Assembly: GCA_041661005.1 (NCBI GenBank)
Contig: JBAZVG010000001.1
Location: 196,917-260,916 of the forward strand
Length of the DNA: 64,000 nucleotides
Direction: 5' to 3'
Source: Minisyncoccota bacterium
GTDB taxonomy: Bacteria > Patescibacteriota > Minisyncoccia > Phycocordibacterales > UBA9973
Shown piece by piece: positions 4,803 through 55,335 of this stretch; the first letter of the stretch is position 1; every line of letters starts with the position of its first letter. Made by a program: the position numbers and the translations under genes. The notes below the pieces were generated by a model. It was not told the DNA's origin. It made no database searches and saw only the letters and a program-made list of their open reading frames with translations.

Positions 4803-4909
4803 CCTTTTATTTTAGCATAAATATGATACCCGGTAGTGAAACTTGGCAAAGTTTTTTAAACGTGCTTCGCGCATTGCCAAGTTCTACTACCGGGTGATAT
4901 ATTACCTAT

Positions 4910-6856: not shown

Positions 6857-8581
6857 ATGGACAATATTAGTAAAAATAGAATATGTCAAAATTGTCGAGG
6901 TGAATTTGTAATCGAATCGGAGGATTTTAATTTCTACGAAAAGATGAAAGTTCCTGCGCCGACTTTTTGTCCGGAGTGTCGACTCATCAGGAGGCTTGTG
7001 TTGAGAAATGAGCGTATTTTATACAAACGTGAGTGTAATTTATGTAAAAAAAATATTATTTCGATTTATCATCAATCTGTACCTTTTCCAGTGTATTGTC
7101 TTCAATGCTGGTACGGCGATGGCTGGGATCCAGTTTCTTTCGGGCGGGACTATGACTTCTCTAGGCCCTTTTTTGAACAATGGAAAGGATTTTCCGATTC
7201 TGCTCCACGACTTGCTTTATGGCACAGAAATGCGATCAATTCCGATTACTCGAGCTTTGTAGGAGAGTCGAAGAATGTTTATTTATCAGTCTCGGTAGTT
7301 CTTGGATCAGAAAATGTATTTTATTCAAAATTTGTGGATAAATCAACGGATATTGTTGATTGTTTGAATATTAAAGACGGACAAATTCTTTATGAAGACA
7401 TAGAGGGCGAAAAAAATTACAATTGCCAGCACCTTTTCTTATCAAAGAATTGTATTGATTCTTTTTTTCTCGTTGACTGCACAAATTGCAGTAATTGTTT
7501 ACTTTCCCATAATTTGCGTAATAAAGAATTTTACATTCGTAATGTGAAATATTCAAAAGAAGAATATTTTAAAGAATTGGAAAAAATTAATTTAAAAAGC
7601 AGAGCGTCAAGAAAAATTTCATTGGAAGAATTTGAAAAAATCAAAATAAAATCTATTTATCGTTTTGCCAATATTGTAAAATCTGTGAACTCAACAGGGA
7701 ATAATCTTTTAAATGTTAAAAATTGTAAAAATTGTTTCGAAGTTTATGATGCTGAAAATTTAAAATATTGTTATCGGGTATTGAGATCTTTTAAAGATTC
7801 CATGGATACGAGTTATGGGATGAAATCTGAATTAATTTATGAATATATAACTGGCGCTAATACTGATTATAATGTGAAATTTTCTTCCTCTGGAATAAAT
7901 TATGTGCAAAATGCCGAATATACTGATTGTTGCATTAATTGTAATAATATTTTTGGTTGCATTTCTCTGAAGAATAAAGAAAACGCGGTTTTTAATAAAA
8001 TTTACACTAAAGAAGAATTTTTTAAACTTCGTGAAAAAATTATTGACCACATGAATGAAATGCCCTATGTTGACCAAAAGGGAAGAGTTTATAAATATGG
8101 AGAATTTTTCCCAATAGAATTGTCTCCGTTTGCCTACAATGAAACTTTGGCGCAGGAGATAGCTCCGATTACAGAGAAGCAAGCAAGCGCAGAAGGTTAT
8201 CCATGGCGCAAGTCGGACCAAAAGAATTTCAAAATTACAATTCCTGCGGAAGATATTCCAGACAACATCAATGAAGTAAGTGACAAAATTTTGAATGAAG
8301 TTTTGGGTTGCGCGCATGAAGGGAAATGTGAACATCAGTGTAATGAAGCTTTTCGCATAACCAATTATGAATTAAATTTTTATAAAAAACACAGTATACC
8401 ATTGCCGATTCTTTGTCAGAATTGCCGTTATTATGAAAGATCGAAAGTTATGCCATCACTCAAATTGTGGCACAGAAAGTGTATGAAAAAAGGTTGCGAA
8501 AATGAATTTGAAACCTCATATGCTCCAAATCGGCCGGAGATTATTTATTGTGAGCGTTGTTATCAGCAAGAAGTTTATTAA
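6857..8581 (+). CDS. Large cysteine-rich protein of unknown function (574 aa), paralog of 55332-57041
   Basis: ~40 Cys. N- and C-terminal modules read CxxC ... FY.KM.VP.PT.CP.CR, with internal C.NC.NCF.C..L.NK repeats. Clearly alignable end-to-end with the second copy. Confidence 0.8.
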   Translation: MDNISKNRICQNCRGEFVIESEDFNFYEKMKVPAPTFCPECRLIRRLVLRNERILYKRECNLCKKNIISIYHQSVPFPVYCLQCWYGDGWDPVSFGRDYDFSRPFFEQWKGFSDSAPRLALWHRNAINSDYSSFVGESKNVYLSVSVVLGSENVFYSKFVDKSTDIVDCLNIKDGQILYEDIEGEKNYNCQHLFLSKNCIDSFFLVDCTNCSNCLLSHNLRNKEFYIRNVKYSKEEYFKELEKINLKSRASRKISLEEFEKIKIKSIYRFANIVKSVNSTGNNLLNVKNCKNCFEVYDAENLKYCYRVLRSFKDSMDTSYGMKSELIYEYITGANTDYNVKFSSSGINYVQNAEYTDCCINCNNIFGCISLKNKENAVFNKIYTKEEFFKLREKIIDHMNEMPYVDQKGRVYKYGEFFPIELSPFAYNETLAQEIAPITEKQASAEGYPWRKSDQKNFKITIPAEDIPDNINEVSDKILNEVLGCAHEGKCEHQCNEAFRITNYELNFYKKHSIPLPILCQNCRYYERSKVMPSLKLWHRKCMKKGCENEFETSYAPNRPEIIYCERCYQQEVY

Positions 8582-8615
8582 ATTTAAAATTTATGATACA
8601 ATAAAATCATGCAAT

Positions 8616-8732
8616 CCCGTTAGAAGCCGCGGTCGCAGTATTATATAAAAATTATGAAGTGGAAAAATATAGAAATTAATAGTTTAATCAAGCACAGTTA
8701 CGGTTTATTGACCGCGACCTGCTTCTAACGGG
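8616..8732. mobile_element. MITE-like element: 12-bp perfect terminal inverted repeats CCCGTTAGAAGC/GCTTCTAACGGG flanked by a 7-bp direct repeat ATGCAAT
   Basis: Read from the sequence. The right-hand copy of the direct repeat is the frr start codon (ATGCAAT at 8733-8739); the left-hand copy is at 8609-8615. Confidence 0.55.
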
Positions 8733-9284
8733 ATGCAATACAATTTTTCAAACTTTAAAACAGAAATTAAAAAAGTAGGGGATTTTTTAAGCAAAGAATA
8801 TAGCCAATTAAATATTGGACGAGCGTCGCCTATGGTTTTGGACGGCGTTTCCGTAGAATCATACGGATCTCGTGTCCCGTTAAAAAACACCGCTTCTGTT
8901 TCCATTGAGGATCCGAAAACTTTGCGCGTGGTGCCTTGGGACAAGGGTCAAATAAAAGATATTGAAAAGGCTATCAATGCGGCCAATCTGGGGCTGTCAG
9001 TTGCGACCGATGATGCTGGTATTCGAGTTATTTTTCCACAGTTAACGACGGATACAAGGCAATCTCTCGTGAAAGTGCTGAAAGAAAAATTGGAGGAAAC
9101 CAGAATCACTGTGCGTCGCGAGCGTGAAAGTATTTGGAAAGACGTAGAAGCCAAAGAAAAGGAAGGCAAGCTGACCGAAGATGAAAAATTTAGAGCAAAG
9201 GAAGAATTACAAAAAATTATAGATGAAGCTAACAGAAACCTAGAGGCAAGTTTCGAAAAAAAGCAGAAAGAAGTCATGGGGTAG
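8733..9284 (+). CDS. frr: Ribosome recycling factor
   Basis: 183 aa. Pattern GRASPMVLDGV.VE.YG ... WDK ... IEKAI ... LGL ... IRV.FP.LT.D.R matches RRF. Confidence 0.9.
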   Translation: MQYNFSNFKTEIKKVGDFLSKEYSQLNIGRASPMVLDGVSVESYGSRVPLKNTASVSIEDPKTLRVVPWDKGQIKDIEKAINAANLGLSVATDDAGIRVIFPQLTTDTRQSLVKVLKEKLEETRITVRRERESIWKDVEAKEKEGKLTEDEKFRAKEELQKIIDEANRNLEASFEKKQKEVMG

Positions 9285-9296
9285 AGCCGTATGAAT

Positions 9297-9370
9297 CCCG
9301 TTAGAAATTATAGGGACATGAAAAATATAAATTACAATCAAATATTACTTTTGGGTGAATTTCTAACGGG
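9297..9370. mobile_element. MITE-like element, second copy: terminal inverted repeats CCCGTTAGAAAT/ATTTCTAACGGG flanked by a 6-bp direct repeat ATGAAT
   Basis: The right-hand ATGAAT (9371-9376) is the rseP start codon; the left-hand copy is at 9291-9296. Positions 11-12 of the inverted repeat covary relative to copy 1 (GC/GC versus AT/AT). Confidence 0.55.
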
Positions 9371-10477
9371 ATGAATATAATAATTTTTATCATAATGTTG
9401 TTGGTGTTGGTTCTCGTGCACGAAGCGGGACATTTTTTTACTGCAAAGAAATTTGGTATTCGGGTTGACGAATTTGGATTTGGTTTTCCGCCGAAGATAT
9501 TTGGCAAGAAATATGGTGAGACTGAATATAGTTTGAATTTACTACCCATCGGAGGTTTTGTGAAAATTTTTGGCGAGAACCCCGATGATGAAAACACTAA
9601 CGGGCCGGATGCTAGCCGAAGTTTCGTCAATAAAGCAAAATGGAAGCAAGCGATAGTCTTGGTCGCTGGAGTCACTGCAAATTTTTTATTGGCATGGCTT
9701 TTGTTTTCTGTTGGATTTATGTCTGGAATGCCTACATCAGTGGGTAGTCAGCCGAAAGGTATTAATTTAAATAATGTTTTTTTAACCATAGTTTCTGTTG
9801 CGCCGGATTCTCCAGCTGAAAAAGCAGGACTTAAAACTGGAGATAGGATTGCTGCTGTAGAAATTTTACCTTATACAATGGATGAGCTTAACACTGATGC
9901 TTTTAAAGCATTTATAGTTGCACATCCTCAAAAAGAGTTTGGAATAGAGTATTTAAGAGGTAAAGATGAATATACTCTTCATACAACAAAAGTCACTCCA
10001 ACTGCGGGTATTAATGGTGCACAGCCAATGATAGGCATATCTATGGATATGATCGGCACGGCTAAATTGCCCTTTTTTACAGCCCTAAAAGAGGGAATGG
10101 AGTTAACCCTATTTGTCACAAAAGGCACAGTTGTAGGGCTTTATGAGCTTATTGTAGGCAGTATACAAGGCAAAAGCGACCTTTTGTCATCCGTGACAGG
10201 TCCCGTGGGGATGGTGGGCATAGTAGGTGACGCTTATCAGTTTGGCTTCGTCTATCTTCTTTCTTTTGCCGCACTTATCTCAGTTAATCTTGCAATCATA
10301 AACTTACTTCCGTTTCCGGCGCTAGATGGCGGACGGCTTTTCTTTCTACTGATTGAGAAAATAAAAGGTTCACGAATAAATCCAAAGTTTGCCAATATGG
10401 CCAACATGATTGGTTTTGGTATTTTGATTTTGCTTATGGTTGTAGTCACTTTTCATGATGTAATTAAATTGTTCTAA
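9371..10477 (+). CDS. rseP: Site-2 protease / M50 zinc metalloprotease RseP family with PDZ domain
   Basis: HEAGHF (HExxH) in TM1, a PDZ region, and NLLPFPALDGGRL. Confidence 0.85.
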   Translation: MNIIIFIIMLLVLVLVHEAGHFFTAKKFGIRVDEFGFGFPPKIFGKKYGETEYSLNLLPIGGFVKIFGENPDDENTNGPDASRSFVNKAKWKQAIVLVAGVTANFLLAWLLFSVGFMSGMPTSVGSQPKGINLNNVFLTIVSVAPDSPAEKAGLKTGDRIAAVEILPYTMDELNTDAFKAFIVAHPQKEFGIEYLRGKDEYTLHTTKVTPTAGINGAQPMIGISMDMIGTAKLPFFTALKEGMELTLFVTKGTVVGLYELIVGSIQGKSDLLSSVTGPVGMVGIVGDAYQFGFVYLLSFAALISVNLAIINLLPFPALDGGRLFFLLIEKIKGSRINPKFANMANMIGFGILILLMVVVTFHDVIKLF

Positions 10478-19506: not shown

Positions 19507-20046
19507 TCATAATTTCCAGAAGTTGATAATTTTTATAAATTTTTCCACATTCTTTGAAATTCTAATTATATATTTAACTCTATTTTTCTTTATGTCCAAG
19601 ACTTTTCTTGCTTTTATTGCAAAGCCAATTTCTTGGAGCATATCCTCTATATCTCTAATTAGAGTATAACAAACTGACGTAAAATTTACCATTTTGTAGC
19701 CTCGATCACTATAGATTGATCCGTCTGTTTGGAATAATCCTCGCAAACATTCTTTTCTATAAACCTTATTTTCCTTGATCCAGCTAGGCACGCCTACCTT
19801 CTGTTTAATTTTTGAACCACCTTTAGCTCCCCATCCCAATATTTTTTCTAAATCATTTGAATAAATACATATGTCTAAGGCATTAACTCGATCTGTGATA
19901 GAAATTTTGTTTTGAGTAAAAATTATTTTTAGATTTTTAATTATATTTTCTACAATTAGAGGATACTTTTTATCACAAGTAATTCTAAGTCTAACAGCTC
20001 TTCCATTTGGATTCGACAAATTACCATCCCCGAGAGCTATGCCCAT
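19507..20046 (-). CDS. LAGLIDADG-family homing endonuclease (double-motif, free-standing)
   Basis: Two LAGLIDADG motifs: IMGIALGDGNL and LRGLFQTDGSIY. The ORF track starts it at 20127, but that extension is antisense to tRNA-Leu, so the internal ATG at 20046 is more plausible. Confidence 0.7.
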   Translation of the reverse strand: MGIALGDGNLSNPNGRAVRLRITCDKKYPLIVENIIKNLKIIFTQNKISITDRVNALDICIYSNDLEKILGWGAKGGSKIKQKVGVPSWIKENKVYRKECLRGLFQTDGSIYSDRGYKMVNFTSVCYTLIRDIEDMLQEIGFAIKARKVLDIKKNRVKYIIRISKNVEKFIKIINFWKL

Positions 20047-20086
20047 TATGTAGGCTATAGATTTTTTATTATTTATATGAGGCAAG

Positions 20087-20170
20087 TGCCGGGAGGGAGA
20101 CTCGAACTCCCACGGGGTTGCCCCCAAACGATTTTGAGTCGTTCGCGTAAACCAATTCCGCCATCCCGGC
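20087..20170 (-). tRNA. tRNA-Leu (anticodon CAA), type II with long variable arm
   Basis: Reverse complement reads GCCGGGA ... anticodon loop CUCAAAA ... variable stem GGGG-GCAA-CCCC ... T-loop TTCGAGT ... TCCCGGC-A. Confidence 0.8.
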
Positions 20171-23519: not shown

Positions 23520-24383
23520 TTAATTTAATTTTATCTCACTCATTTCTTCTTTAATAAGTCCTTTGATTTCCATAACCGTCAGTAAAGCGTTAGCGTTTGG
23601 AATTGGCATTTTCATAGTGCGAATTAAATAATCTCTTTGCATAGGCTCTCTTAATAATTTAACAACGGTTTTCTCTTCTGGCGATAAATCTTCAAAAAGT
23701 CTTTTTTGTTTTTCTTCATCTTTGGCTAATTTAAAACCAAGTGCTTCCAACACGTCTTCAGAGCAAGTGATGGGGGTCGCGCCTTGATGAAGTAGTCTGT
23801 TTGTTCCTTTTGAATTGGAAGAGAAAATTGATCCAGGCACTACCAGTAAATCTCTATTGTATTCTGTCGTGAGTCGCGCAGTGATAAGGGTGCCAGATCG
23901 CTCTTCGGCTTCTATTATTAACACAGCTTTTGAAATGCCTGCCATAAGTCTGTTGCGCATTGGAAAACTCCATTGAGTTGCTTTGAAGTCAGGTTCGAAT
24001 TCTGAAATTAAACATCCACCATTTTCAACTATTTCATTTATCAATCGCACGTTCGTTTTCGGATACATTGCTTCGTCGGAGAGTCCAGAACCCGGGAAGA
24101 CGATAGTCGTGAGTCCCGTTTGCATTGCTTTTTTGTGTGCGATTGTGTCTATGCCTATGGCAAAACCGGAGACTATCACTATGGGATAGCCTTTTAGACC
24201 CGCAATTATTTTCTCACAAGCTTCGCGTCCATAGGTAGTAAACTTGCGCGAGCCTACCACGCATAAGTAAATTAAATTTTCGTCAGTAGGTAAGTCGCCT
24301 ATGATCCAAAGGTCTTCTGGGGGTTGGGGAATTTCTAGAAGTGCTTTTGGGAATTTATTTTTTGGTAGTTTTCTGATTTGCAT
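23520..24383 (-). CDS. dprA: DNA processing protein DprA (Smf)
   Basis: Rossmann-like DprA core GSRKFTTYG ... VVSGFAIGID..AHKKAM ... ERSGTLITA. Confidence 0.85.
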   Translation of the reverse strand: MQIRKLPKNKFPKALLEIPQPPEDLWIIGDLPTDENLIYLCVVGSRKFTTYGREACEKIIAGLKGYPIVIVSGFAIGIDTIAHKKAMQTGLTTIVFPGSGLSDEAMYPKTNVRLINEIVENGGCLISEFEPDFKATQWSFPMRNRLMAGISKAVLIIEAEERSGTLITARLTTEYNRDLLVVPGSIFSSNSKGTNRLLHQGATPITCSEDVLEALGFKLAKDEEKQKRLFEDLSPEEKTVVKLLREPMQRDYLIRTMKMPIPNANALLTVMEIKGLIKEEMSEIKLN

Positions 24384-24523
24384 GTTACGCGAGAAATATC
24401 TTTTAAAAACCGCACATAATTTTCTGCTGAAAATTTGTTATGCTCGGCGCGCCCGCCTGCGCAATGCTTTTTAAAAGTTATTTCTCGCTTCACATTATAG
24501 CAAGTTTGATATACAATATGAAT

Positions 24524-26837: not shown

Positions 26838-27959
26838 ATGCAAAATTTTTGGAAAAAATTAAAAAAGCCCGCCTTGCCTGACGGAAGTCGAGGCAGGCCA
26901 TTTTTCTGCCTTGCGCCGATGTCAGATGTCACTGATATCGCTTTTCGTCACATGTTGGCAAAATATGGCAAAAATAGGGAAAATAAAGATAGAGTTGTTT
27001 TTTGGACAGAGTTTGTGTCTGCTGATGGTTTGTGCAATAAATTTGCCAGACAAAAGTTGGCACACATGCTGGTCTTCTCGGAATCTGAAAGGCCAATTGT
27101 GGCGCAAATTTTTGGCGCTAATCCGGAAAATATGAAGAAAGCTTGCCAATATGTCGCAAATCTTGGCTTTGATGGGATAGATATAAATATGGGTTGCCCA
27201 GATAAATCAGTCGTGAGTCAGGGGGCTGGCGCAGGGTTGATTAAAAATCCAGAACTTGCGCGACAGATTATCAAAGCAGTTCATGCGGGTATAAAATCAG
27301 CTGGACGAGACATACCTGTGTCAGTGAAAACTAGAATTGGTTTTAATAAAGAAGAAATTGATCGCTGGATACCAGAATTATTAAAAGAAGATATTTCTGC
27401 TTTGACGATTCACTTGCGCACAGCCAAAGAGCTTTCACTCGTTCCAGCCAATTGGGAACATATCAAAAAAATAAAGAAACTTATAGAAAAAAGTGGGAAA
27501 AATATTTTGCTGATAGGCAACGGTGATGTGAAAGATTTAAAAGATGCAGAAGAAAAAGCCTCGAAATATGGCTGTGATGGGGTGATGATAGGTCGCGGAG
27601 TTTTTGGCAATCCGTGGTTTTTTGATTCCACTAGAAAAATGGAAAACGGTAGTGAATTTTATGTCCCCGAGGGTCCCGCTTTGTGTCCCTTAATGCGCCC
27701 AAAGAAGGGCGCAGGGGCAGAAAATTCACTACCGTTTTCCATTATACGAGAAAAACTTCAAGTCCTCATAGAGCATACGCAAATTTTTGATAAAGAACTT
27801 GCGATACCTAAACATAAAAATTTTGATGTAATGAAAAAACATTTCAAGGCTTATGTGAATGGTTTTGATGGCGCCAAAGAACTTCGAATAAAATTAATGG
27901 AAACTGAAAATTCGAAACAAGTTGAAAAGATAATAAATGATTTTTTGGAAACAAACTGA
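26838..27959 (+). CDS. dus: tRNA-dihydrouridine synthase
   Basis: FMN-binding TIM barrel motifs LAPMSDVTD.AFR and GFDGIDINMGCP. Carries an in-frame ~106-nt inverted-repeat insertion (27638-27743). Confidence 0.85.
   Translation: MQNFWKKLKKPALPDGSRGRPFFCLAPMSDVTDIAFRHMLAKYGKNRENKDRVVFWTEFVSADGLCNKFARQKLAHMLVFSESERPIVAQIFGANPENMKKACQYVANLGFDGIDINMGCPDKSVVSQGAGAGLIKNPELARQIIKAVHAGIKSAGRDIPVSVKTRIGFNKEEIDRWIPELLKEDISALTIHLRTAKELSLVPANWEHIKKIKKLIEKSGKNILLIGNGDVKDLKDAEEKASKYGCDGVMIGRGVFGNPWFFDSTRKMENGSEFYVPEGPALCPLMRPKKGAGAENSLPFSIIREKLQVLIEHTQIFDKELAIPKHKNFDVMKKHFKAYVNGFDGAKELRIKLMETENSKQVEKIINDFLETN
27638..27743 (+). repeat. In-frame ~106-bp palindromic element inside dus: 23-bp perfect terminal inverted repeats AATGGAAAACGGTAGTGAATTTT / AAAATTCACTACCGTTTTCCATT
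   Basis: Read from the sequence. Its GC-rich palindromic core GCGCCCAAAGAAGGGCGC is translated in frame as ..MENGSEFYVPEGPALCPLMRPKKGAGAENSLPFSI.. Confidence 0.7.
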
Positions 27960-30695: not shown

Positions 30696-30766
30696 TGGGG
30701 GATCGTCTAATGGTAGGACACATCCCTTTGAAGGATGTTATTTTGGTTCGAGTCCAAGTCCCCCAG
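30696..30766 (+). tRNA. tRNA-Gln (anticodon UUG)
   Basis: Acceptor TGGGGGA/TCCCCCA, anticodon stem-loop CATCC-CUUUGAA-GGATG, T-loop TTCGAGT. GC content jumps immediately at its 3' end. Confidence 0.8.
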
Positions 30767-32446
30767 CACGTTTGGACTCACAGAGGCGGATGCCTCATTT
30801 GGCCCTTTCGACAGGCCAGTATTTTCAGGTTCGATTGGCTTGTTTTCGGTTTCTGTATCCGACATGGACTTTTCGAGGATGAAGAACGGTTCGCGGGCTT
30901 CAATGCTCAGCTTTTTGGCCTTCAAAGTTAGGTTCGATCCGAATGTCACCAGCATCTCCTCTTTGGTCTTCGCATCGCCGTTCGCGAACCGCTCCCGAGC
31001 GGTCGAGGCAAATTCAAACGTGTCTTCGGACAGTTTTAACTGCTGCTCAATCCGCTTCCCGGCATCCTGAAGCAACTCCTCCAAAGCGGACTTTTCTTTG
31101 AGTAGCTTCACCCTCCTCTGACCGTATTCCTCATCCGATAGCTGGCTTCCGTCTGCGTTGCTGGACGAGGTTTTCAGACCCACCAGATTGTCGATTTCCT
31201 GCAAGCACGCTCGATATGCCTTCTGCTGGGCTTCGATGATGGCGCTTTGCTCCATGCTCTCCTTCGCGTGCAATTCATGGAGGAATTTGATGCAGTAGGC
31301 TTTGAATTTCTCGGAAATATGGATGCGGCCAAGATATTCACGAATCTGCCTTTCGAGATCAAATGCACTCACACTCTTCTGCGGACAAGATGGACGTTTG
31401 CTTTTTGAACAATGGTAATAGGTGTAGTGAAGGAAGAGCGGGTTCGTCATTTCTTCGATCGATGTCTGGCAGCGCGGGCAGGCGTTTCGCTTGCGGTAGG
31501 CAAACTTGAACCGGCATTGGCCACACATGACCTGGTGCTTTTCCTCAGCGGTCACCATCCGGTCACACTCGCCACAACGGATGAGGCCGGTGAAAGCAAA
31601 TTCAAAGTGCGATTGAGGCCGCGGACTGCCGTTGCGGCCAAGCAAAGTCTGCACCCGGTCATATTCCGCTTCGGTGATCATCGGCTCGTGCTTTCCCTGA
31701 TACCACTTGTTGCTGCCGTTTGGATATTCAAACCAGCCGTAATAGAAGGGCTTGGTGAAGATCTGGTAGATGGCGCTTCGGCAAAGAGGCTTGCCACCCA
31801 TCTTGCGCGTTGGCCTCGTGCGGAAGGCCCACTCTTTGTTGGCGATTTCCAGAATTCTCGGCGGGGTGTAGAGGCCGGTCAGCATCAAATCCCACATGCG
31901 ACGGAGCAGAGGAAAACGCTCCGGATCTTTGACCAGAGTGTTTTCGCCCGTCAGCTTGTCGGTGTGGTTCAAGTAGCCTGCCGGGGCGACGCCGGGATAC
32001 CAGCCGTTTTCGGTCTTGGTCTTGAGTCCCCGTTTTACGTTTTTGCTCAGGTCGTCCACGTATTTCTGCGCCATGCCGAATTCGATATACATGAGGATGA
32101 TATTGTCATCTTCACGGGCGTAAGTCTGGGCCGGGGTCATGATCCTGATGCCATGCTGTTTGATGCCCCAGATGATGGAACCTCCGTCCACCGGATTACG
32201 CGCCAGACGATCAAGTTTCCAGCAGATGACGCCGGCAGCTTCACCACGGTAAAGGCGTTGCATCATCTGATTGAACACCGGGCGCCCCGGATCTTTTGCG
32301 GATTTCGACTCGGTCAATACTTCGACAACTTGTAAATTTAACTTGGCCGCCAACTGCTCCAATTCGCGGGTTTGGGATTCAATGGAAAGAATCTGCCGGT
32401 CTTCGGCTTCGGATGATTTGCGACAATAGATGAAGTATCCTGACAT
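30707..32446 (-). CDS. Large serine recombinase (integrase of a tRNA-Gln-associated island)
   Basis: N-terminal resolvase catalytic domain IYCRKSSEAEDRQ..SIESQ ... LDRLARN, a recombinase domain, a zinc ribbon CGECDR...CGQC...CPRC, and a coiled coil. Its 3' end overlaps the tRNA-Gln 3' half on the opposite strand. Confidence 0.8.
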   Translation of the reverse strand: MSGYFIYCRKSSEAEDRQILSIESQTRELEQLAAKLNLQVVEVLTESKSAKDPGRPVFNQMMQRLYRGEAAGVICWKLDRLARNPVDGGSIIWGIKQHGIRIMTPAQTYAREDDNIILMYIEFGMAQKYVDDLSKNVKRGLKTKTENGWYPGVAPAGYLNHTDKLTGENTLVKDPERFPLLRRMWDLMLTGLYTPPRILEIANKEWAFRTRPTRKMGGKPLCRSAIYQIFTKPFYYGWFEYPNGSNKWYQGKHEPMITEAEYDRVQTLLGRNGSPRPQSHFEFAFTGLIRCGECDRMVTAEEKHQVMCGQCRFKFAYRKRNACPRCQTSIEEMTNPLFLHYTYYHCSKSKRPSCPQKSVSAFDLERQIREYLGRIHISEKFKAYCIKFLHELHAKESMEQSAIIEAQQKAYRACLQEIDNLVGLKTSSSNADGSQLSDEEYGQRRVKLLKEKSALEELLQDAGKRIEQQLKLSEDTFEFASTARERFANGDAKTKEEMLVTFGSNLTLKAKKLSIEAREPFFILEKSMSDTETENKPIEPENTGLSKGPNEASASVSPNVLGDLDSNQNNILQRDVSYH

Positions 32447-38639: not shown

Positions 38640-39647
38640 CTAGTATGCCATGGCTAGGGACAACCTAGGTTGTGTAGCTTGTTGCGTTTGTCCATTCAGC
38701 ACCTCCTGAATATTGTTCGCAATTCTACCAATGACAGAAATACTTACGGAATTACCGAATTGTTTATATAAATGTGAATCTGAAATATTTGGTAATTTAT
38801 AGGAATTAGGAAAACCTTGTAGGCGAGCACATTCTCTTGGTGTTAACTTTCGTATACCACGAGAATCCCTTACTAAGGGGACATTATGACCTCCTGTACC
38901 CATATTTGCAGTTAAAGTAGGACATACTCCACTTTTATTATGTCTTATATATTGTCGTCTCCATTGATAGACATCTCCAATTTCAAAATCGTACTTTTTT
39001 AACTTTTCAAACAAAGGTTTGTCGTTATAATAGTATTTCTGATCAATAAATTCTGGCTTTTCCAAAATATCTAAAACAGTTTTATTTCTTTCAATTTTTT
39101 CAGGAAATTCAAAACTATTAATATATCCAGTATCTTTTCTAAAACCAACAATATATATCCGCTCTCTGTTTTGGGGAACATTCCCATAATGCATACTATT
39201 TAATATTTCAGCTTTAACATCATAACCAAGCTCATCCAATGTTTTCAGAATGACACGAAATGTATTTCCATTATCATGATTATAAAGATTTTTTACATTT
39301 TCTAAAAGAAAGCCAATGGGTTTTCTTTCATCAATTATTCTTGCAACATCAAAAAATAAATTACCCCTGTCATCTTTAAATCCATGACGATAACCAGCAA
39401 TAGAAAATGCCTGACATGGGAATCCACCCAATAAAAAATCAAATTGGGGTAAATCACTAATTTTAATTTTTCTTATATCCTCAACAGTTAAAGCTGTATC
39501 TTTAAAATTTAGATCGTAAGTATCTTTGCATTTAGGTTCAAAATCATTAGCAAAGACTGTATTAAAGCCAGCTTTTTCAAAGCCAATTCTTATACCTCCG
39601 ACTCCCGCAAATAAGTCTATTGTTCTATATTTTTTTACATTTGCCAT
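38640..39647 (-). CDS. DNA (cytosine-5)-methyltransferase
   Basis: Motifs I DLFAGVGG, IV GFPCQAFS, VI ENVKNL, VIII QNRERIYIVG, X RKLTPRECARLQGFP. Confidence 0.9.
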   Translation of the reverse strand: MANVKKYRTIDLFAGVGGIRIGFEKAGFNTVFANDFEPKCKDTYDLNFKDTALTVEDIRKIKISDLPQFDFLLGGFPCQAFSIAGYRHGFKDDRGNLFFDVARIIDERKPIGFLLENVKNLYNHDNGNTFRVILKTLDELGYDVKAEILNSMHYGNVPQNRERIYIVGFRKDTGYINSFEFPEKIERNKTVLDILEKPEFIDQKYYYNDKPLFEKLKKYDFEIGDVYQWRRQYIRHNKSGVCPTLTANMGTGGHNVPLVRDSRGIRKLTPRECARLQGFPNSYKLPNISDSHLYKQFGNSVSISVIGRIANNIQEVLNGQTQQATQPRLSLAMAY

Positions 39648-52365: not shown

Positions 52366-55335
52366 ATGATTTCACGGATATATGTGATACCTAAAAACGA
52401 AGCAACCAAGGCAGATTCTTATTTGATTGACTCTAAATTATCTAAAAAAGAACTTGTAAAACTAGCTCAGACACTTACTAATCCTATTTTGGAGGATTAT
52501 TTTATAGACGAATCTCCAAGAGTTGGAAACTTTTCCCATGCAATCGAAATAGGATTTTTACCGGGGGTCACAGATAATGTCGGCCATACAGTCAAAGAAA
52601 TTGCGACAGATATGCTTCATCTAAAAAAGAATTTCAGTTTGGCGGTTTATACCTCCAAGATTTTTTTTATTAATTCACACGGCCTTGAAGACGCCCAGAA
52701 ACACTCTCTTACTTTATACAATCCGCTTATTGAAAGAGCCCTTTTTGTAGAGATAAAATCCGGAAAAATAGATTTGCCAAATAAAATACCTGAAGTTGTT
52801 TTAAGAAAAGGTGTGTCAATTTTACCTGTTTCACTTTCAGTGTCAGATGAAGAACTTATAAAAATAGGGAAAGAAGGAATACTGGACGAGACAAATTTAC
52901 GCAGGGGACCTTTAGCGCTTGATCTATCTTCAATGCAAGCTATTCAAAAATATTTTTCTTCGCTAAAAAGAAACCCGACTGATATAGAGCTCGAATCTCT
53001 AGCTCAAACTTGGTCAGAACATTGCAAGCACACTATTTTTGCAAATGAAATAGATGATATTAAAGATGGCTTGTATAAAACTTACATAAAAGGGGCGACA
53101 AATTTAATAAGAAAACAAAAGACAGAGAGAGGTCAGCAGGATTTTTGTGTTTCTGTTTTTAGTGATAATGCTGGCGGAATAATTTTTGATGAAGATTATT
53201 TAATAACACACAAAGTCGAAACCCATAACAGCCCTTCGGCTCTCGATCCATTTGGTGGAGCAATCACAGGCATAGTAGGGGTGAATCGCGACACAATCGG
53301 CTTTGGATTGGGCGCCAAACCGATAGCCAATACTTATGGATTTTGTTTTGGTAATCCGGAAGATACAAGACCGCTTTTTCGAGATAAAGAGCAGAAACAA
53401 AGAATGCTTTTACCGAAACGCATCATGGAAGGGGTGGTAAAGGGAATAAACGTCGGAGGAAACTGCTCCGGGATTCCGACTCTTTCTGGATTTATCAAAT
53501 TTGACGATAGATATAGGGGGAAACCTTTGGTTTTTGCCGGAACTGTTGGATTAATTCCAAGAAACTTATCTATCCATGGAGGGAAAAAACAACTATCGCA
53601 TGAAAAACAGGCACGAGTAGGGGATTATATAGTTATGGTTGGTGGAAGGGTAGGACTCGATGGAATACATGGAGCCACTTTTTCTTCCGTAACTATGGAT
53701 TCGACTTCTCCTGCGACAGCAGTGCAGATAGGAGATCCGATAACTCAAAAGAAACTTAGCGATAGCATCGTCAAAGAAGCGCGCGATATGAATTTATATA
53801 CTAGCATCACAGATAACGGTGCTGGTGGGCTGTCATGTTCAGTATCCGAGATGGCAAAAGAATGCGGTGGAGCAAAAGTTTTCATAGAAAAAATACCACT
53901 TAAATATCCAGGTCTTCTTCCTTGGGAAATTTGGATTTCTGAATCGCAAGAACGAATGACTTTGTCTGTTCCAAAAAATAAATGGAAAATGTTCCAAAAG
54001 TTGATGGAAAGTCGGGGGGTAGAAGCGATTGTGATTGGAGAATTCACAAATTCTGGAAAAGTTATCGTGCAATATAAAGGAAAAAAAATTATGGATATAG
54101 ATATGGAGTTTTTGCACAACGGATTGCCGAAACATTATTTAAACACTACTCCAGTGATAATCAAAAATCTTGAGCCTGCATTACCTAAAGGTCTATCACG
54201 CACAAAGGTTCTAGAAAAATTGTTAGGTGAAAAAAATATCAGCGGATTTGCTTTCATTTCCGAGCAGTATGACCACGAGGTGCAAGCATCTTCCGTGTTA
54301 AAACCGTTGTCCGGGAGGGGACGTATTAATACCGACAGTCAAATTTTTCGTCCGGTTTTGAATTCAAACAAAGGAGTTGTGTTGTCATCCTCAAGCTATC
54401 CTTCATACGGAGACATAAGCTCTTATGACATGGCATCTTGCGCGCTCGATACTGCAATTCGAAACATAATTGCATCAGGTGGTACGCTTTCACACCTTGC
54501 GATACTAGATAATTTCTGCTGGTGCTCATCAAATGATCCGAAACGGCTATACCAGCTTGTAGAGGCTGTAAAGGCTTGTCATGACACAGCTATCGGCTAC
54601 GGGACGCCGTTTATCTCTGGTAAAGACAGTATGTTCAATGATTTTAAAGGATATGATGAAAAAGGTAATCCTGTTTCTATCTCCATCCCGCCAACCCTTT
54701 TGATTTCTGCGATTAGTGTAATGCCTGATTTATATAAAACAGTTTCACCAGAATTTAAAAATAGTGGGGATATAATTTATTTACTGGGAGAAACGCATGA
54801 TGAATTAGGCGCAAGCGAATATTATAAACTTTTGGTAAAACAAGAGGGGAATAATGCAACCCACCTAGACCCGCTTCGATGCGAGGCGAGCTCGGCGAGG
54901 CTGGTAGGCAATAGTGTGCCAAAAGTTAATTTAGAAAAAAATCTAAAAACTTATTTAGCGTTAGAGAAGGCTATTCAAAAAGAACTGTTAGCTTCTTCGC
55001 TTTCTGTAACTTCCGGAGGCTTTGGAATCGCCTTAACTAAAGCATCTATTGGTGGAATGCTCGGATGTGAAATAAACATCAAAAACATGCTGGGGGGCTC
55101 AAATTTGGCCGATGTGAAGCTTTTTTCTGAAAGCCAGGGTAGGATATTGGTTTCTGTATCTCCTAAAAACACAAAGCAGTTTGAAAGAATAATGCAGGAA
55201 ATTCCTTGTGCTAAACTTGGAAAAGTAACAAAAAATGATAAGTTTGTAATTTTAGATGGTAAAGATAAAATTGTCGAAACAAATATTAAAAAATTGCACG
55301 CCATTTATCATAAATTTTCGAATTCACAACAATGA
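52366..55335 (+). CDS. purL: Phosphoribosylformylglycinamidine synthase subunit PurL with a large-type N-terminal (PurS-like) domain; glutaminase encoded separately
   Basis: RNPTDIELESLAQTWSEHCKHTIF (compare NP.DIEL.M.AQ.NSEHCRHKIF), VETHNSPSALDPFGGA, AIR-synthase-like domains; 989 aa. Carries an in-frame 45-nt element at 54860-54904. Confidence 0.85.
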   Translation: MISRIYVIPKNEATKADSYLIDSKLSKKELVKLAQTLTNPILEDYFIDESPRVGNFSHAIEIGFLPGVTDNVGHTVKEIATDMLHLKKNFSLAVYTSKIFFINSHGLEDAQKHSLTLYNPLIERALFVEIKSGKIDLPNKIPEVVLRKGVSILPVSLSVSDEELIKIGKEGILDETNLRRGPLALDLSSMQAIQKYFSSLKRNPTDIELESLAQTWSEHCKHTIFANEIDDIKDGLYKTYIKGATNLIRKQKTERGQQDFCVSVFSDNAGGIIFDEDYLITHKVETHNSPSALDPFGGAITGIVGVNRDTIGFGLGAKPIANTYGFCFGNPEDTRPLFRDKEQKQRMLLPKRIMEGVVKGINVGGNCSGIPTLSGFIKFDDRYRGKPLVFAGTVGLIPRNLSIHGGKKQLSHEKQARVGDYIVMVGGRVGLDGIHGATFSSVTMDSTSPATAVQIGDPITQKKLSDSIVKEARDMNLYTSITDNGAGGLSCSVSEMAKECGGAKVFIEKIPLKYPGLLPWEIWISESQERMTLSVPKNKWKMFQKLMESRGVEAIVIGEFTNSGKVIVQYKGKKIMDIDMEFLHNGLPKHYLNTTPVIIKNLEPALPKGLSRTKVLEKLLGEKNISGFAFISEQYDHEVQASSVLKPLSGRGRINTDSQIFRPVLNSNKGVVLSSSSYPSYGDISSYDMASCALDTAIRNIIASGGTLSHLAILDNFCWCSSNDPKRLYQLVEAVKACHDTAIGYGTPFISGKDSMFNDFKGYDEKGNPVSISIPPTLLISAISVMPDLYKTVSPEFKNSGDIIYLLGETHDELGASEYYKLLVKQEGNNATHLDPLRCEASSARLVGNSVPKVNLEKNLKTYLALEKAIQKELLASSLSVTSGGFGIALTKASIGGMLGCEINIKNMLGGSNLADVKLFSESQGRILVSVSPKNTKQFERIMQEIPCAKLGKVTKNDKFVILDGKDKIVETNIKKLHAIYHKFSNSQQ
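54860..54904 (+). repeat. 45-nt palindromic element copy inside purL (translated THLDPLRCEASSARL)
   Basis: CCCACCTAGACCCGCTTCGATGCGAGGCGAGCTCGGCGAGGCTGG. Confidence 0.75.

What the first reader, a model, noticed from the sequence alone, without database searches (positions are those of the whole stretch)
9291..9376. Second copy of the same MITE-like element at the rseP start codon, with covarying inverted-repeat tips
The arrangement is ATGAAT | CCCGTTAGAAAT ...50 bp... ATTTCTAACGGG | ATGAAT, and the right-hand ATGAAT starts rseP (M-N-I). The two copies share the 10-bp inverted-repeat core CCCGTTAGAA. Positions 11-12 differ between copies but remain complementary within each copy (GC/GC versus AT/AT), which indicates that pairing of the ends is maintained. 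Both insertions duplicate a target beginning with ATG and ending in AAT, suggesting a target preference of roughly ATGNAAT. This is an unusual element that homes to start codons.
Basis: seen in the sequence. Interest (0 to 1): 0.8.

Follow-up and report, generated by a model that had tools for sequence, protein, structure and literature searches.

The report
Mobile hairpin inserted at start codons
A 74-bp hairpin-forming piece of mobile DNA has inserted exactly at the start codon of the rseP gene and rebuilt that codon. It belongs to an apparently undescribed, very widespread family of miniature transposons in tiny-genome (CPR) and other uncultivated bacteria, and about half of the copies examined sit at start codons.

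Summary
Window 9297-9370 is CCCGTTAGAAAT...ATTTCTAACGGG, flanked by ATGAAT on both sides, and the right copy starts rseP. A 117-bp sister copy lies at the frr start (8616-8732). Four orthologous loci (Frr 87-90% identical) lack both elements and carry a single ATGAAT/ATGCAAT, so both are insertions.

Most are Patescibacteria; some are Desulfobacterota, Planctomycetota and Omnitrophota.

Across 136 copies:
- The true target duplication is 4 nt (TNNA; 83 perfect versus about 9 expected).
- It abuts a complementary terminal Y:R pair (130/134).
- IR positions 11-12 covary.
- 65 copies sit exactly at a start codon (5-10 expected). The element's 3' A/G plus a TG.. duplication rebuilds ATG or GTG.
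- Other copies lie in frame inside enzymes (SecA, RsmH, Xth, TrpF), read as PVRS...SNG, much like Rickettsia palindromic elements.
- The adjacent genes are unrelated to each other.

Verdict: a new MITE-like family. The proposed ATGNAAT target is wrong in detail. The start-codon association is real, but whether it reflects targeting or selection is unresolved. No transposase was found. The CCC ends and the T...A duplication point, tentatively, to an IS1380/piggyBac-like enzyme.

The parts
9296..9371 (.). Copy 2 of the hairpin element, including its complementary terminal bases (T9296...A9371). The core CCCG...CGGG is 9297-9370 (74 bp).
   Evidence: Absent from the orthologous frr-rseP junctions in L122, L123, L125 and L127. 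The terminal Y:R pair is Watson-Crick in 130/134 family copies.
9297..9308 (+). Left terminal inverted repeat CCCGTTAGAA + AT (positions 11-12 are the variable, covarying ones).
9359..9370 (+). Right terminal inverted repeat AT + TTCTAACGGG.
9291..9296 (+). Upstream copy of the duplicated start (ATGAAT). The 4-nt target duplication proper is TGAA, 9292-9295.
   Evidence: Orthologues have a single AGTAGC-ATGAAT-ATAG.
9371..9376 (+). Downstream ATGAAT, the functional rseP start. A9371 is supplied by the element end; TGAA 9372-9375 is the right copy of the target duplication.
9291..9374 (+). Leader ORF created by the insertion (MNPVRNYRDMKNINYNQILLLGEFLTG*). It starts at the old start codon, and its TGA stop overlaps the rseP ATG (ATGA).
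   Evidence: In 16 of 45 comparable copies the upstream start reads to a stop exactly at the gene start, and in none is it fused in frame to the gene. That it is translated is an inference.
9371..10477 (+). rseP (site-2 protease, Peptidase_M50), the gene whose start codon was hit.
8616..8732 (+). Copy 1 of the same family (117 bp, bulged 'CGCG' subfamily). It has a 12-bp outer stem, a 3'-side bulge ACCT (8717-8720), a second stem CGCGGTC/GACCGCG (8628-8634 / 8710-8716) and an AT-rich interior.
   Evidence: Absent upstream of frr in the orthologues.
8609..8615 (+). Upstream ATGCAAT copy at the frr start. This is a 7-nt direct repeat, equivalent to a 5-nt TGCAA duplication plus the terminal T/A. 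It is preceded by an extended -10-like TGATACAAT at 8594-8602.
8733..9284 (+). frr (ribosome recycling factor). Its ATGCAAT start (8733-8739) is the right copy of the duplication.
8654..8728 (+). Internal small ORF of copy 1 (MKWKNIEINSLIKHSYGLLTATCF*). It ends at the TAA inside the right inverted repeat, 4 nt before the frr ATG.
   Evidence: Such ORFs occur in 18 sense-oriented copies against 8 in the antisense control. This is weak evidence.

Best explanation
The feature is one copy of a family of miniature, non-coding, hairpin-forming transposable elements (MITE-like, about 30-132 bp). Their ends are an invariant 11-bp inverted repeat, Y-CCCGTTAGAA...TTCTAACGGG-R, followed by two or more covarying base pairs.

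Shown: the element entered the frr-rseP junction of this Paceibacterota/Nomurabacteria genome at A|TGAA|T and duplicated TGAA. Its 3'-terminal A together with the duplicated TG re-creates an intact ATG for rseP. The old ATG stays upstream, next to its native signals. A sister copy did the same at frr.

Inferred: the element is moved in trans by a DDE transposase that makes 4-nt (3-5 nt) staggered cuts at T..A-ended sites. This may be an IS1380/piggyBac-like enzyme, because those elements share CC(C) ends and T...A duplications of 4-5 bp.

Inferred: in these very compact genomes, copies survive mainly where they do not break a gene.
- At start codons, because the start is regenerated. Translation from the retained upstream start, or from an internal small ORF, can open the hairpin and terminate at or just before the true start, allowing re-initiation.
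- In frame inside ORFs, because the repeat is open in two frames in both orientations and reads PVR...SNG or PLE...LTG.
- Just after stop codons.
For: Insertion and empty sites: orthologous loci with Frr 87-90% identical have a 5-14 bp frr-rseP gap with one ATGAAT/ATGGAA/ATGAGT, and one ATGCAAT after a conserved ...TGATACAATAAAAAT upstream of frr.

There are 11 viral-contig matches, few of them typical.

Target duplication: in the 6-nt register there are 22 perfect and 54 one-mismatch repeats of 134, against 1.5 and 8.4 expected. The mismatches fall at repeat positions 1 and 6. The 4-nt TNNA is perfect in 83/136 against 8.6 expected. Eight copies have a 3-nt duplication and one a 5-nt duplication, which is window copy 1.

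Ends: L-1:R+1 is Watson-Crick in 130/134 copies. Positions 11-12 are paired in 125/134 and 120/134 copies with several pair types.

Start codons: 65/136 copies sit exactly at offset 0, against 5-10 expected (P<1e-36). The upstream start copy is never fused in frame to the gene (0/45), and in 16/45 it stops exactly at the gene start.

In-frame copies lie inside or next to Pfam domains of SecA, RsmH, Xth, TrpF, RfbB-like, polyprenyl synthase and an IOR-like enzyme.

The neighbouring genes are unrelated: 77 Pfam families among 60 genes, at most 3 genes per family. There is no Rfam match.

A sister family, CCCGGTAGTGAA, has the same architecture and T-initial 4-5 nt duplications.

Literature: piggyBac has CCC ends and a TTAA duplication, with IS1380 as its prokaryotic relative (PMC10813416). 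ISEcp1, an IS1380-family element, makes a 5-bp TATGA duplication (PMC2887853), and its left end reads CCTAGATTCTACG.
Against: No autonomous element and no IS1380-like transposase was found. tblastn with the ISEcp1 transposase found nothing in 1.42 Mb of held loci, the window ORFs tested gave no transposase, and no long-range repeat partners were seen.

TIR similarity to ISEcp1 or piggyBac is limited to CC(C)..TAGA.

An identical 10-11 bp end across distant phyla is unusual for MITEs. However, the scan demanded exact cores, and MAG binning errors could inflate the phylum spread.

The spike exactly at start codons is larger than a simple 'non-coding sites only' null predicts.

The bulged subfamily has a fixed orientation at start codons (22:2) but not inside ORFs (about 5:4). 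So something beyond neutral survival is acting: either function or targeting.

The terminal Y:R base correlates with the base next to the duplication, so the exact cut geometry (4 nt versus 5-6 nt) is not settled.
Confidence: 0.75

Rival explanations
1. Active targeting. The transposition machinery itself selects start codons or transcription start sites, for example by recognising A|TGNA in melted promoter DNA of leaderless genes or through a host factor. The enrichment would then be mechanistic 'homing'.
For: There is a sharp spike at offset 0: 65 copies, against 1-3 at each of offsets 1-30. The enrichment is 6-13-fold over TNNA sites, even when only non-coding sites are counted. Many hit genes have a -10-like box 6-9 nt before the ATG, including frr (TGATACAAT, 8594-8602), which suggests leaderless starts.
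Against: About half of all copies are elsewhere: in ORFs, after stop codons or in intergenic DNA, with TSDs such as TAAA, TTGA and TCAA. The rseP start that was hit lies 6 nt after the frr stop, inside an operon, with no promoter. The orientation bias is seen only at start codons and not in ORFs, which points to selection after insertion. T..A-ended rather than C..G-ended copies dominate at ATG starts, as expected if an ATG has to be restored.
Confidence: 0.25
2. Domesticated or functional mobile leader. At start codons the element acts in the mRNA as a translational control or coupling module. Its hairpin pairs with the A and U of the AUG, and a leader ORF or a processing site could then give the host or the element control over housekeeping gene expression.
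For: The bulged subfamily has a fixed orientation relative to the gene (17:1; 22:0 for the C.T asymmetry; 22:2). The second stem covaries (GGTC/GACC, GATC/GATC, GGAC/GTCC). Small ORFs ending at the repeat's TAA occur in 18 sense copies against 8 antisense controls. Length mod 3 = 1 is enriched (29/62). The predicted hairpins are stable, with z = -6.0 and -3.4. Five copies have flanks that pair with the AUG region only through G.U pairs.
Against: The paired repeat positions are almost purely Watson-Crick with very few G.U pairs, as expected for DNA repeats rather than a selected RNA helix. The interiors are not conserved. The small-ORF excess is weak. The neighbouring genes are unrelated. Close relatives do without the element. 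No expression data are available.
Confidence: 0.2
3. A hairpin recombination site of another kind: an integron attC site, a REP/BIME element mobilised by a RAYT, or an IS200/IS605-type palindrome (PATE), all of which are handled as folded single strands.
For: The architecture, with an outer stem, a bulge, a second stem and a variable loop over 60-130 bp, superficially resembles attC. GTTAGAA/TTCTAAC resembles the attC core sites GTTRRRY/RYYYAAC.
Against: The order of the core-like motifs is inverted relative to attC (GTT... on the 5' arm and ...AAC on the 3' arm). There are no cassette arrays and no integrase nearby. Copies sit inside genes and at start codons. Clear variable 4-nt target duplications are present, and HUH or tyrosine-recombinase hairpin systems do not make these. 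The REP GTAG motif is absent.
Confidence: 0.03
4. A chance inverted repeat, a transcription terminator of frr, or an assembly artefact.
For: It lies between two genes directly after the frr stop codon, where terminators are common.
Against: The expected number in shuffles is zero. No T-run follows the stem, and the terminator scan finds none there. An identical sequence occurs in an independent assembly. There are hundreds of relatives with the same ends. Orthologues lack it.
Confidence: 0.01

Closest known systems
Rickettsia palindromic elements (RPEs; Ogata et al. 2000; reviewed in PMC10969869)
   Same: Both are short palindromic mobile repeats that survive inside protein-coding genes as in-frame, stop-free insertions adding a peptide. 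Here the peptides are PVRS...SNG or PLE...LTG, found in SecA, RsmH, Xth, TrpF and other proteins. Both occur in small genomes, and neither has a known transposase.
   Different: The sequences are unrelated and the hosts are different and far broader (CPR plus other phyla). These elements are shorter (30-132 bp versus about 100-150 bp). They have clear 4-nt target duplications and an invariant 11-bp end. About half of the copies sit exactly at start codons, which is not a described RPE property.
Classical bacterial MITEs (Correia/NEMIS of Neisseria, ERIC, RUP, Nezha; PMC10969869, PMC3184786)
   Same: Terminal inverted repeats, short target duplications, no coding capacity, many copies, insertion polymorphism between relatives, hairpin-forming transcripts and occasional gene fusions.
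   Different: No cognate IS is known. The ends are identical across phyla. The interiors are highly variable (down to 30 bp, i.e. almost only the two repeats) with covarying inner stems. The start codon is regenerated by the element's own terminal base.
IS1380 family (e.g. ISEcp1) and eukaryotic piggyBac transposons
   Same: Ends begin CC(C): ISEcp1 IRL is CCTAGATTCTACG and piggyBac has CCC ends (PMC10813416). Target duplications of 4-5 bp start with T and end with A: TTAA for piggyBac and TATGA for ISEcp1 (PMC2887853). Here they are TNNA, with TGCAA for window copy 1 and TGATA for the sister element.
   Different: The similarity is only in the end and duplication signature. No DDE_Tnp_1_4 or piggyBac-type transposase was found near any copy. 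The target is relaxed (TNNA, not TTAA). Membership is a hypothesis, not a result.
Translational coupling and split ribosome-binding sites (overlapping stop/start ATGA; hairpin between signals as in phage T4 gene 38, cited from general knowledge)
   Same: The geometry after insertion is comparable. An upstream start with native signals is followed by a hairpin, and then by a stop at or overlapping the true start: ATGA at rseP, and TAA 4 nt before the frr ATG.
   Different: Here the arrangement is created by a mobile insertion rather than evolved in place, and its function has not been tested.

Membership tests
MITE (miniature inverted-repeat transposable element) | Terminal inverted repeats | tested here: met
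   The 10-bp core is shared by all copies retrieved (required by the search). The flanking Y:R pair is complementary in 130/134 copies. Positions 11-12 are complementary in 125/134 and 120/134.
MITE (miniature inverted-repeat transposable element) | Target-site duplication of fixed short length | tested here: met
   A 4-nt TNNA duplication is perfect in 83/136 copies, against 8.6 expected from shuffled partners. Rare 3-nt and 5-nt variants exist.
MITE (miniature inverted-repeat transposable element) | Small, non-coding, multi-copy | tested here: met
   Lengths are 30-132 bp. There are 2 copies in this window and up to 3 per 8-kb locus elsewhere.
MITE (miniature inverted-repeat transposable element) | Presence/absence polymorphism with intact empty sites | tested here: met
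   L122, L123, L125 and L127 lack both window copies and carry a single target sequence. The same holds for the sister element upstream of mreB.
MITE (miniature inverted-repeat transposable element) | A cognate autonomous IS with the same ends that supplies the transposase | tested here: inconclusive
   None was found in the window or in 1.42 Mb of loci. The collections could not be searched for 1-2 kb elements.
RPE-like in-frame palindromic insertions | Copies inserted in frame within conserved protein-coding genes | tested here: met
   Family copies lie within or beside Pfam domains of RsmH, Xth, TrpF, an epimerase, SecA and other proteins. Their lengths are multiples of 3 and they contain no stops. 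The two window copies themselves are at start codons, not in frame.
RPE-like in-frame palindromic insertions | Sequence homology to RPE families | not tested
   No comparison with RPE consensus sequences was run. The core CCCGTTAGAA and the hosts differ from what I recall of RPEs.
IS1380 / piggyBac-type transposon derivative | CC(C) termini and a 4-5 bp T...A target duplication | tested here: met
   compared and the literature.
IS1380 / piggyBac-type transposon derivative | Associated DDE_Tnp_1_4 (PF13701) or piggyBac-type transposase with matching ends | tested here: inconclusive
   tblastn with the ISEcp1 transposase (verified) found nothing in the held loci. Whole genomes were not available.
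Integron attC site | R'' RYYYAAC at the 5' side and R' GTTRRRY at the 3' side, in cassette arrays next to intI | tested here: not met
   The motif order is reversed (GTTAGAA on the 5' arm, TTCTAAC on the 3' arm). Copies are single and lie inside genes or at start codons. Variable target duplications are present.
REP/RAYT or IS200/IS605 palindromes | No target duplication; insertion 3' of a fixed tetra/pentanucleotide | tested here: not met
   Variable 4-nt duplications flank the copies.
Cis-regulatory RNA (riboswitch, leader, Rfam family) | Conserved association with one gene family or regulon, and a curated RNA model | tested here: not met
   There is no Rfam match at gathering score, and only noise at E<=10. 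The 60 downstream genes match 77 Pfam families, with at most 3 genes in any family.
Intrinsic terminator | G+C-rich stem followed by a T-run | tested here: not met
   The stem is followed by ATGAAT. The scan finds no terminator at 9291-9376.

The most novel reading that the evidence does not exclude
The elements are not merely tolerated at start codons. Instead they are a mobile 'start-codon cassette'. A transposon end supplies the first base of the start codon. The insertion converts the old start into a leader ORF, and in one obligatory orientation it places housekeeping genes of many uncultivated bacteria (frr, rseP, dnaA, clpP, ATP synthase and others) under a shared hairpin-based translational control or coupling mechanism. 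Insertion might additionally be guided to start codons or leaderless transcription starts by a piggyBac/IS1380-like enzyme capable of seamless excision, which would make the interruption reversible.
Probability: 0.2. Interest if true: 0.85.

Novelty: new variant of a known kind. Interest (0 to 1): 0.6.

Why it matters
Patescibacteria (CPR) are thought to have minimal, IS-poor genomes. Here a single family of tiny hairpin transposons, with ends identical across many CPR lineages and several other phyla, is found at the start codons of essential genes and inside their coding sequences.

Practical consequences:
- Such insertions shift gene-start calls. In L121 the caller started rseP 8 codons late.
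- They add spurious or real peptide insertions to conserved proteins.
- They break assemblies. The L121 contig ends inside copy 1.

Biological consequences:
- The geometry, in which a transposon end regenerates the start codon, offers a simple explanation of how a mobile element can persist in genomes with almost no intergenic DNA.
- The strict orientation at start codons suggests an effect on translation that can be tested.
- If the mobilising enzyme proves to be IS1380/piggyBac-like, these would be bacterial counterparts of piggyBac-type elements that live inside genes.

Tried and rejected
- Rfam at gathering and permissive thresholds returned nothing relevant.
- Literature searches for the core sequence, for MITEs in CPR, for in-frame palindromic elements in Patescibacteria and for MITEs at start codons found no prior description.
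- The search for an autonomous parent failed. Solo ends in the loci were all degraded small copies. Pfam on candidate window ORFs gave a serine recombinase and a LAGLIDADG protein but no DDE transposase. tblastn with the ISEcp1 transposase against 1.06 Mb and 0.36 Mb of loci gave no hit.
- The idea that N-terminally extended Frr homologues carry in-frame elements was rejected: the extensions are ordinary upstream ORF calls.
- A 5-nt or 7-nt duplication register for the family was rejected. A pure 6-nt duplication with random decay was also rejected, because the mismatches avoid the unconstrained middle positions.
- The small-ORF coupling hypothesis has only weak support: 18 versus 8.
- The promoter scan found no sigma-70 consensus in 8450-9450, so the promoter statements rest only on -10-like boxes seen by eye.
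- attC, REP, terminator and riboswitch readings were rejected (see the membership tests).
- The viral-contig scan gave 11 hits, mostly an unrelated palindrome and few typical copies.
- The metagenome scan for the sister core CGGTAGTGAA returned a heterogeneous set. Only a subset (CCCGGTAGTGAATTTT...) is clearly the same kind of element.
Full report
**1. The observation**

The sequence reads ...GGGGTAG AGCCGT ATGAAT | CCCGTTAGAAAT - 50 nt - ATTTCTAACGGG | ATGAAT ATA ATA....
- TAG at 9282-9284 ends frr.
- The ORF starting at 9371 (MNIIIFIIMLLVLVLVHEAGHF...) is the Peptidase_M50/RseP homologue.
- The exact 10-mer core occurs four times in the window, as two inverted pairs at 8616/8732 and 9297/9370.
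- The paired pattern is expected 0.00 times in dinucleotide shuffles.
- The perfect repeat runs 2 nt into the flanks (ATCCCG...CGGGAT, 15 nt).
- Copy 1 is flanked by ATGCAAT on both sides, and the right copy is the frr start.
- An independent Logan assembly has the same sequence, and that contig breaks inside copy 1.
- Rfam has no family for either hairpin.

**2. Both copies are insertions**

The Frr protein identifies the organism as a Candidatus Paceibacterota/Nomurabacteria MAG with an 813-kb contig. I fetched four orthologous loci with Frr 87-90% identical (L122, L123, L125, L127).
- In all four, frr and rseP are 5-14 bp apart, and rseP starts once with ATGAAT, ATGGAA or ATGAGT. An example is ...GGATAG AGTAGC ATGAATATAG.
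- Upstream of frr they read ...TTATGATACAATAAAAAT ATGCAATACAA. This matches the window's ...TTATGATACAATAAAATC ATGCAAT up to the point of insertion.
- None of these loci contains any copy of the element.

**3. The family**

- Most are Patescibacteria: Saccharibacteria, Nomura-, Kerfeld-, Doudna-, Kaiser-, Yanofsky- and Moranbacteria, and Paceibacterota.
- Some are Deltaproteobacteria/Desulfobacterota, Planctomycetota, Omnitrophota and others. These non-CPR copies have the same flank signature. MAG mis-binning cannot be excluded.
- Lengths run from 30 to 132 bp.
- Short copies fold as a long stem carrying two small hairpins. A 110-120 bp subfamily, which includes window copy 1, has a 12-bp outer stem, a 4-nt bulge on the 3' arm (ACCT/TCCT/ATCT), a covarying second stem (CGCGGTC/GACCGCG, CGCGATC/GATCGCG, CGCGGAC/GTCCGCG) and an unconserved AT-rich interior.
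- IR positions 11 and 12 are Watson-Crick in 125/134 and 120/134 copies, with A-T, G-C and C-G (position 11) and T-A, C-G, G-C and A-T (position 12). G.U pairs are rare.

**4. Target duplication**

The 5-, 7- and 8-nt registers are at background.
- The single mismatches lie at repeat position 1 (21 copies) or 6 (30 copies), and almost never at positions 2-5.
- L-1 and R+1 are complementary in 130/134 copies (T:A 70, C:G 58).
- The simplest description is an element Y-CCCG...CGGG-R with a 4-nt duplication TNNA. This is perfect in 83/136 copies against 8.6 expected. Eight copies have 3 nt, and one has 5 nt, which is window copy 1 (TGCAA).
- Frequent duplications are TGAA/TTCA (28), TAAA/TTTA (18), TCCA/TGGA (9), TCAA/TTGA (9) and TGAG/CTCA (8).
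- The terminal pair correlates with the base just outside the duplication. This could reflect selection to restore the split codon, or a longer stagger. I could not decide between these.
- The proposed ATGNAAT target is therefore not correct.

**5. Where copies sit**

- In 65 of 136 copies an ORF of at least 60 codons starts at the very next base after ...CGGG on one strand. Offsets 1-30 hold 1-3 copies each.
- Random TNNA sites would give about 10 such cases, and TNNA sites outside long ORFs about 5 (P<1e-36).
- The 60 downstream proteins match 77 different Pfam families, with at most three genes in any family. They include DnaA, ClpP, topoisomerase, ATP synthase, PGK, aminoacyl-tRNA synthetases, SecD/F, L1, RuvC and NDK. 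The element is therefore not a regulon-specific signal.
- At these sites the duplication is TG.. and the element's 3' A or G rebuilds ATG or GTG. Four ATG genes now start with GTG because a C..G-ended copy inserted.
- Other copies lie inside long ORFs, have lengths that are multiples of 3 and contain no stops. They are read as PVR(S/N/K)...SNG or PLE...LTG. Pfam domains of RsmH, an exonuclease III-type nuclease, TrpF and an epimerase span or are split by the insertion. In SecA, a polyprenyl synthase and a TPP enzyme the insertion lies just after a domain. This is the behaviour described for Rickettsia palindromic elements (PMC10969869).
- A further group sits right after stop codons (G|TAAA), before the next ribosome-binding site.

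**6. What happens at a hit start codon**

- The old start stays next to its native upstream signals and reads ATG-NNY-CCC-GTT-AGA into the element.
- In 45 copies that keep this upstream start, it is never fused in frame to the gene. In 16 it stops exactly at the gene start: at the TAA of the right repeat 4 nt before the ATG, or at an ATGA overlap, as at rseP. In 28 it stops inside the element.
- Copy 1 has an internal 24-codon ORF ending at that TAA. Such ORFs are somewhat more frequent in the sense than in the antisense orientation (18 versus 8).
- The bulged subfamily is almost always oriented with the bulged arm next to the gene (17:1; 22:0 by the position-13 asymmetry; 22:2 with a looser rule). 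In-ORF copies show both orientations (about 5:4). The bias follows the gene even in the four loci where the gene is on the locally minor strand.
- I infer that selection acts on expression after insertion, and that termination-reinitiation from the retained start is a plausible way for the gene to remain translated.
- Both hairpins are predicted to be stable as RNA and to pair the A and U of the AUG.
- None of this has been tested experimentally.

**7. What moves it**

- No transposase was found: Pfam on candidate window ORFs, analysis of solo ends, and tblastn with the ISEcp1 transposase against 1.42 Mb of loci.
- The end and duplication signature is, from my own knowledge, that of the IS1380 family and its eukaryotic relative piggyBac. 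That signature is termini beginning CC(C) and a 4-nt (3-5 nt) duplication starting with T and ending with A.
- The literature held here confirms CCC ends and TTAA duplication for piggyBac, with IS1380 as the prokaryotic outgroup (PMC10813416). It also confirms a 5-bp TATGA duplication for ISEcp1 of the IS1380 family (PMC2887853).
- I read the ISEcp1 left end as CCTAGATTCTACG directly from a plasmid.
- The resemblance (CC..TAGA) is suggestive only, so membership remains a hypothesis.

**8. Related elements in the window**

- A 66-bp hairpin with ends CCCGGTAGTGAA... (4829-4894) lies upstream of mreB. It is flanked by TGATA and is absent from three orthologous loci.
- In metagenomes a subset of this sister family is flanked by TTGA, TCAA or TATG directly abutting CCCGG. 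This supports the 4-5 nt T-initial duplication for the wider group.
- A 106-bp palindrome (27638-27743) lies in frame inside dus. Dus orthologues carry at least five different insertions, or none, at this same loop.

**9. Verdict**

The finding is real and is a mobile element. It is best filed as a new MITE-like family with RPE-like behaviour and a striking, statistically solid association with start codons. Its cause (selection versus targeting), its effect on translation and its transposase remain open. I found no prior description.

Noticed in passing
window 4829-4894 (duplications at 4824-4828 and 4895-4899): A sister hairpin element with ends CCCGGTAGTGAA...TTC(T)ACTACCGGG lies in the mreB upstream region. 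It is flanked by a 5-nt TGATA duplication and is absent from orthologous loci L122, L123 and L125. A subset of metagenome hits with the same ends has 4-nt duplications TTGA, TCAA or TATG.
   Followed up: partly
window 27638-27743, inside dus (26838..27959): A 106-bp palindrome (arms AATGGAAAACGGTAGTGAATTTT) is read in frame as ...MENGSEFYVPEGPALCPLMRPKKGAGAENSLPFS.... Dus orthologues have at least five different insertions, or none, at this same loop after GNPWFF, so the loop is an insertion hot spot.
   Followed up: partly
window 26867-26899 (dus codons ~11-20): A short G+C-rich near-palindrome (GCCTTGCCTGACGGAAGTCGAGGCAGGC) encodes PALPDGSRGR. It is present in some Dus orthologues (with different sequence) and absent from most, so it looks like another tiny in-frame insertion.
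   Followed up: no
window 24382-24495, next to the dprA start (minus strand, ATG at 24383-24381): A third kind of hairpin (arms ATGTTACGCGAGAAATA / TATTTCTCGCTTCACAT) abuts the dprA start codon. On the dprA strand a TATAAT box directly precedes it. It may be another start-codon insertion from a different family.
   Followed up: no
window 8594-8602, and equivalent positions in L012, L046, L068, L072, L104, L113: Extended -10-like boxes (TGATACAAT, TACAAT, TATAAT) lie 6-9 nt before the ATG of genes hit by the element. This suggests that many of these genes are leaderless. The consensus promoter scan found nothing.
   Followed up: no
window 30696-~40000: A probable integrated island lies next to a tRNA gene (30696-30766). 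It contains a large serine recombinase (30707-32446; Resolvase + Recombinase + Zn ribbon), G+C rises to 44-49% against about 36% elsewhere, there are several ORFs without Pfam matches, and one ORF resembles a cytosine methyltransferase (38640-39647).
   Followed up: no
window 19507-20170 (minus strand): A LAGLIDADG-type ORF (19507-20127) overlaps the 3' part of an 84-nt tRNA gene (20087-20170). It may be a homing-endonuclease remnant or an intron-related arrangement.
   Followed up: no
window 6857-8581 and 55332-57041: Two paralogous cysteine-rich proteins of about 570 aa (MDNISKNRICQNCRGEFVIESEDFNFYEKM... / MKAETKICQNCKKDFVIESDDFGFYKKM...) were seen. The first has no Pfam match, and the second was not scanned.
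   Followed up: no
L036 6901, L061 687, L066 22, L119 6549, L120 4813: Five independent start-codon copies lack the 4-nt duplication and instead have the left flank (A/C)YTGT. In RNA this would pair with AUG(A/G)A through G.U pairs, extending the stem over the start codon.
   Followed up: no
L121 690 versus window 9371: The public gene call for rseP on the Logan contig starts 8 codons downstream of the ATG that abuts the element, and the contig ends inside copy 1. This suggests these hairpins disturb both gene calling and assembly.
   Followed up: no
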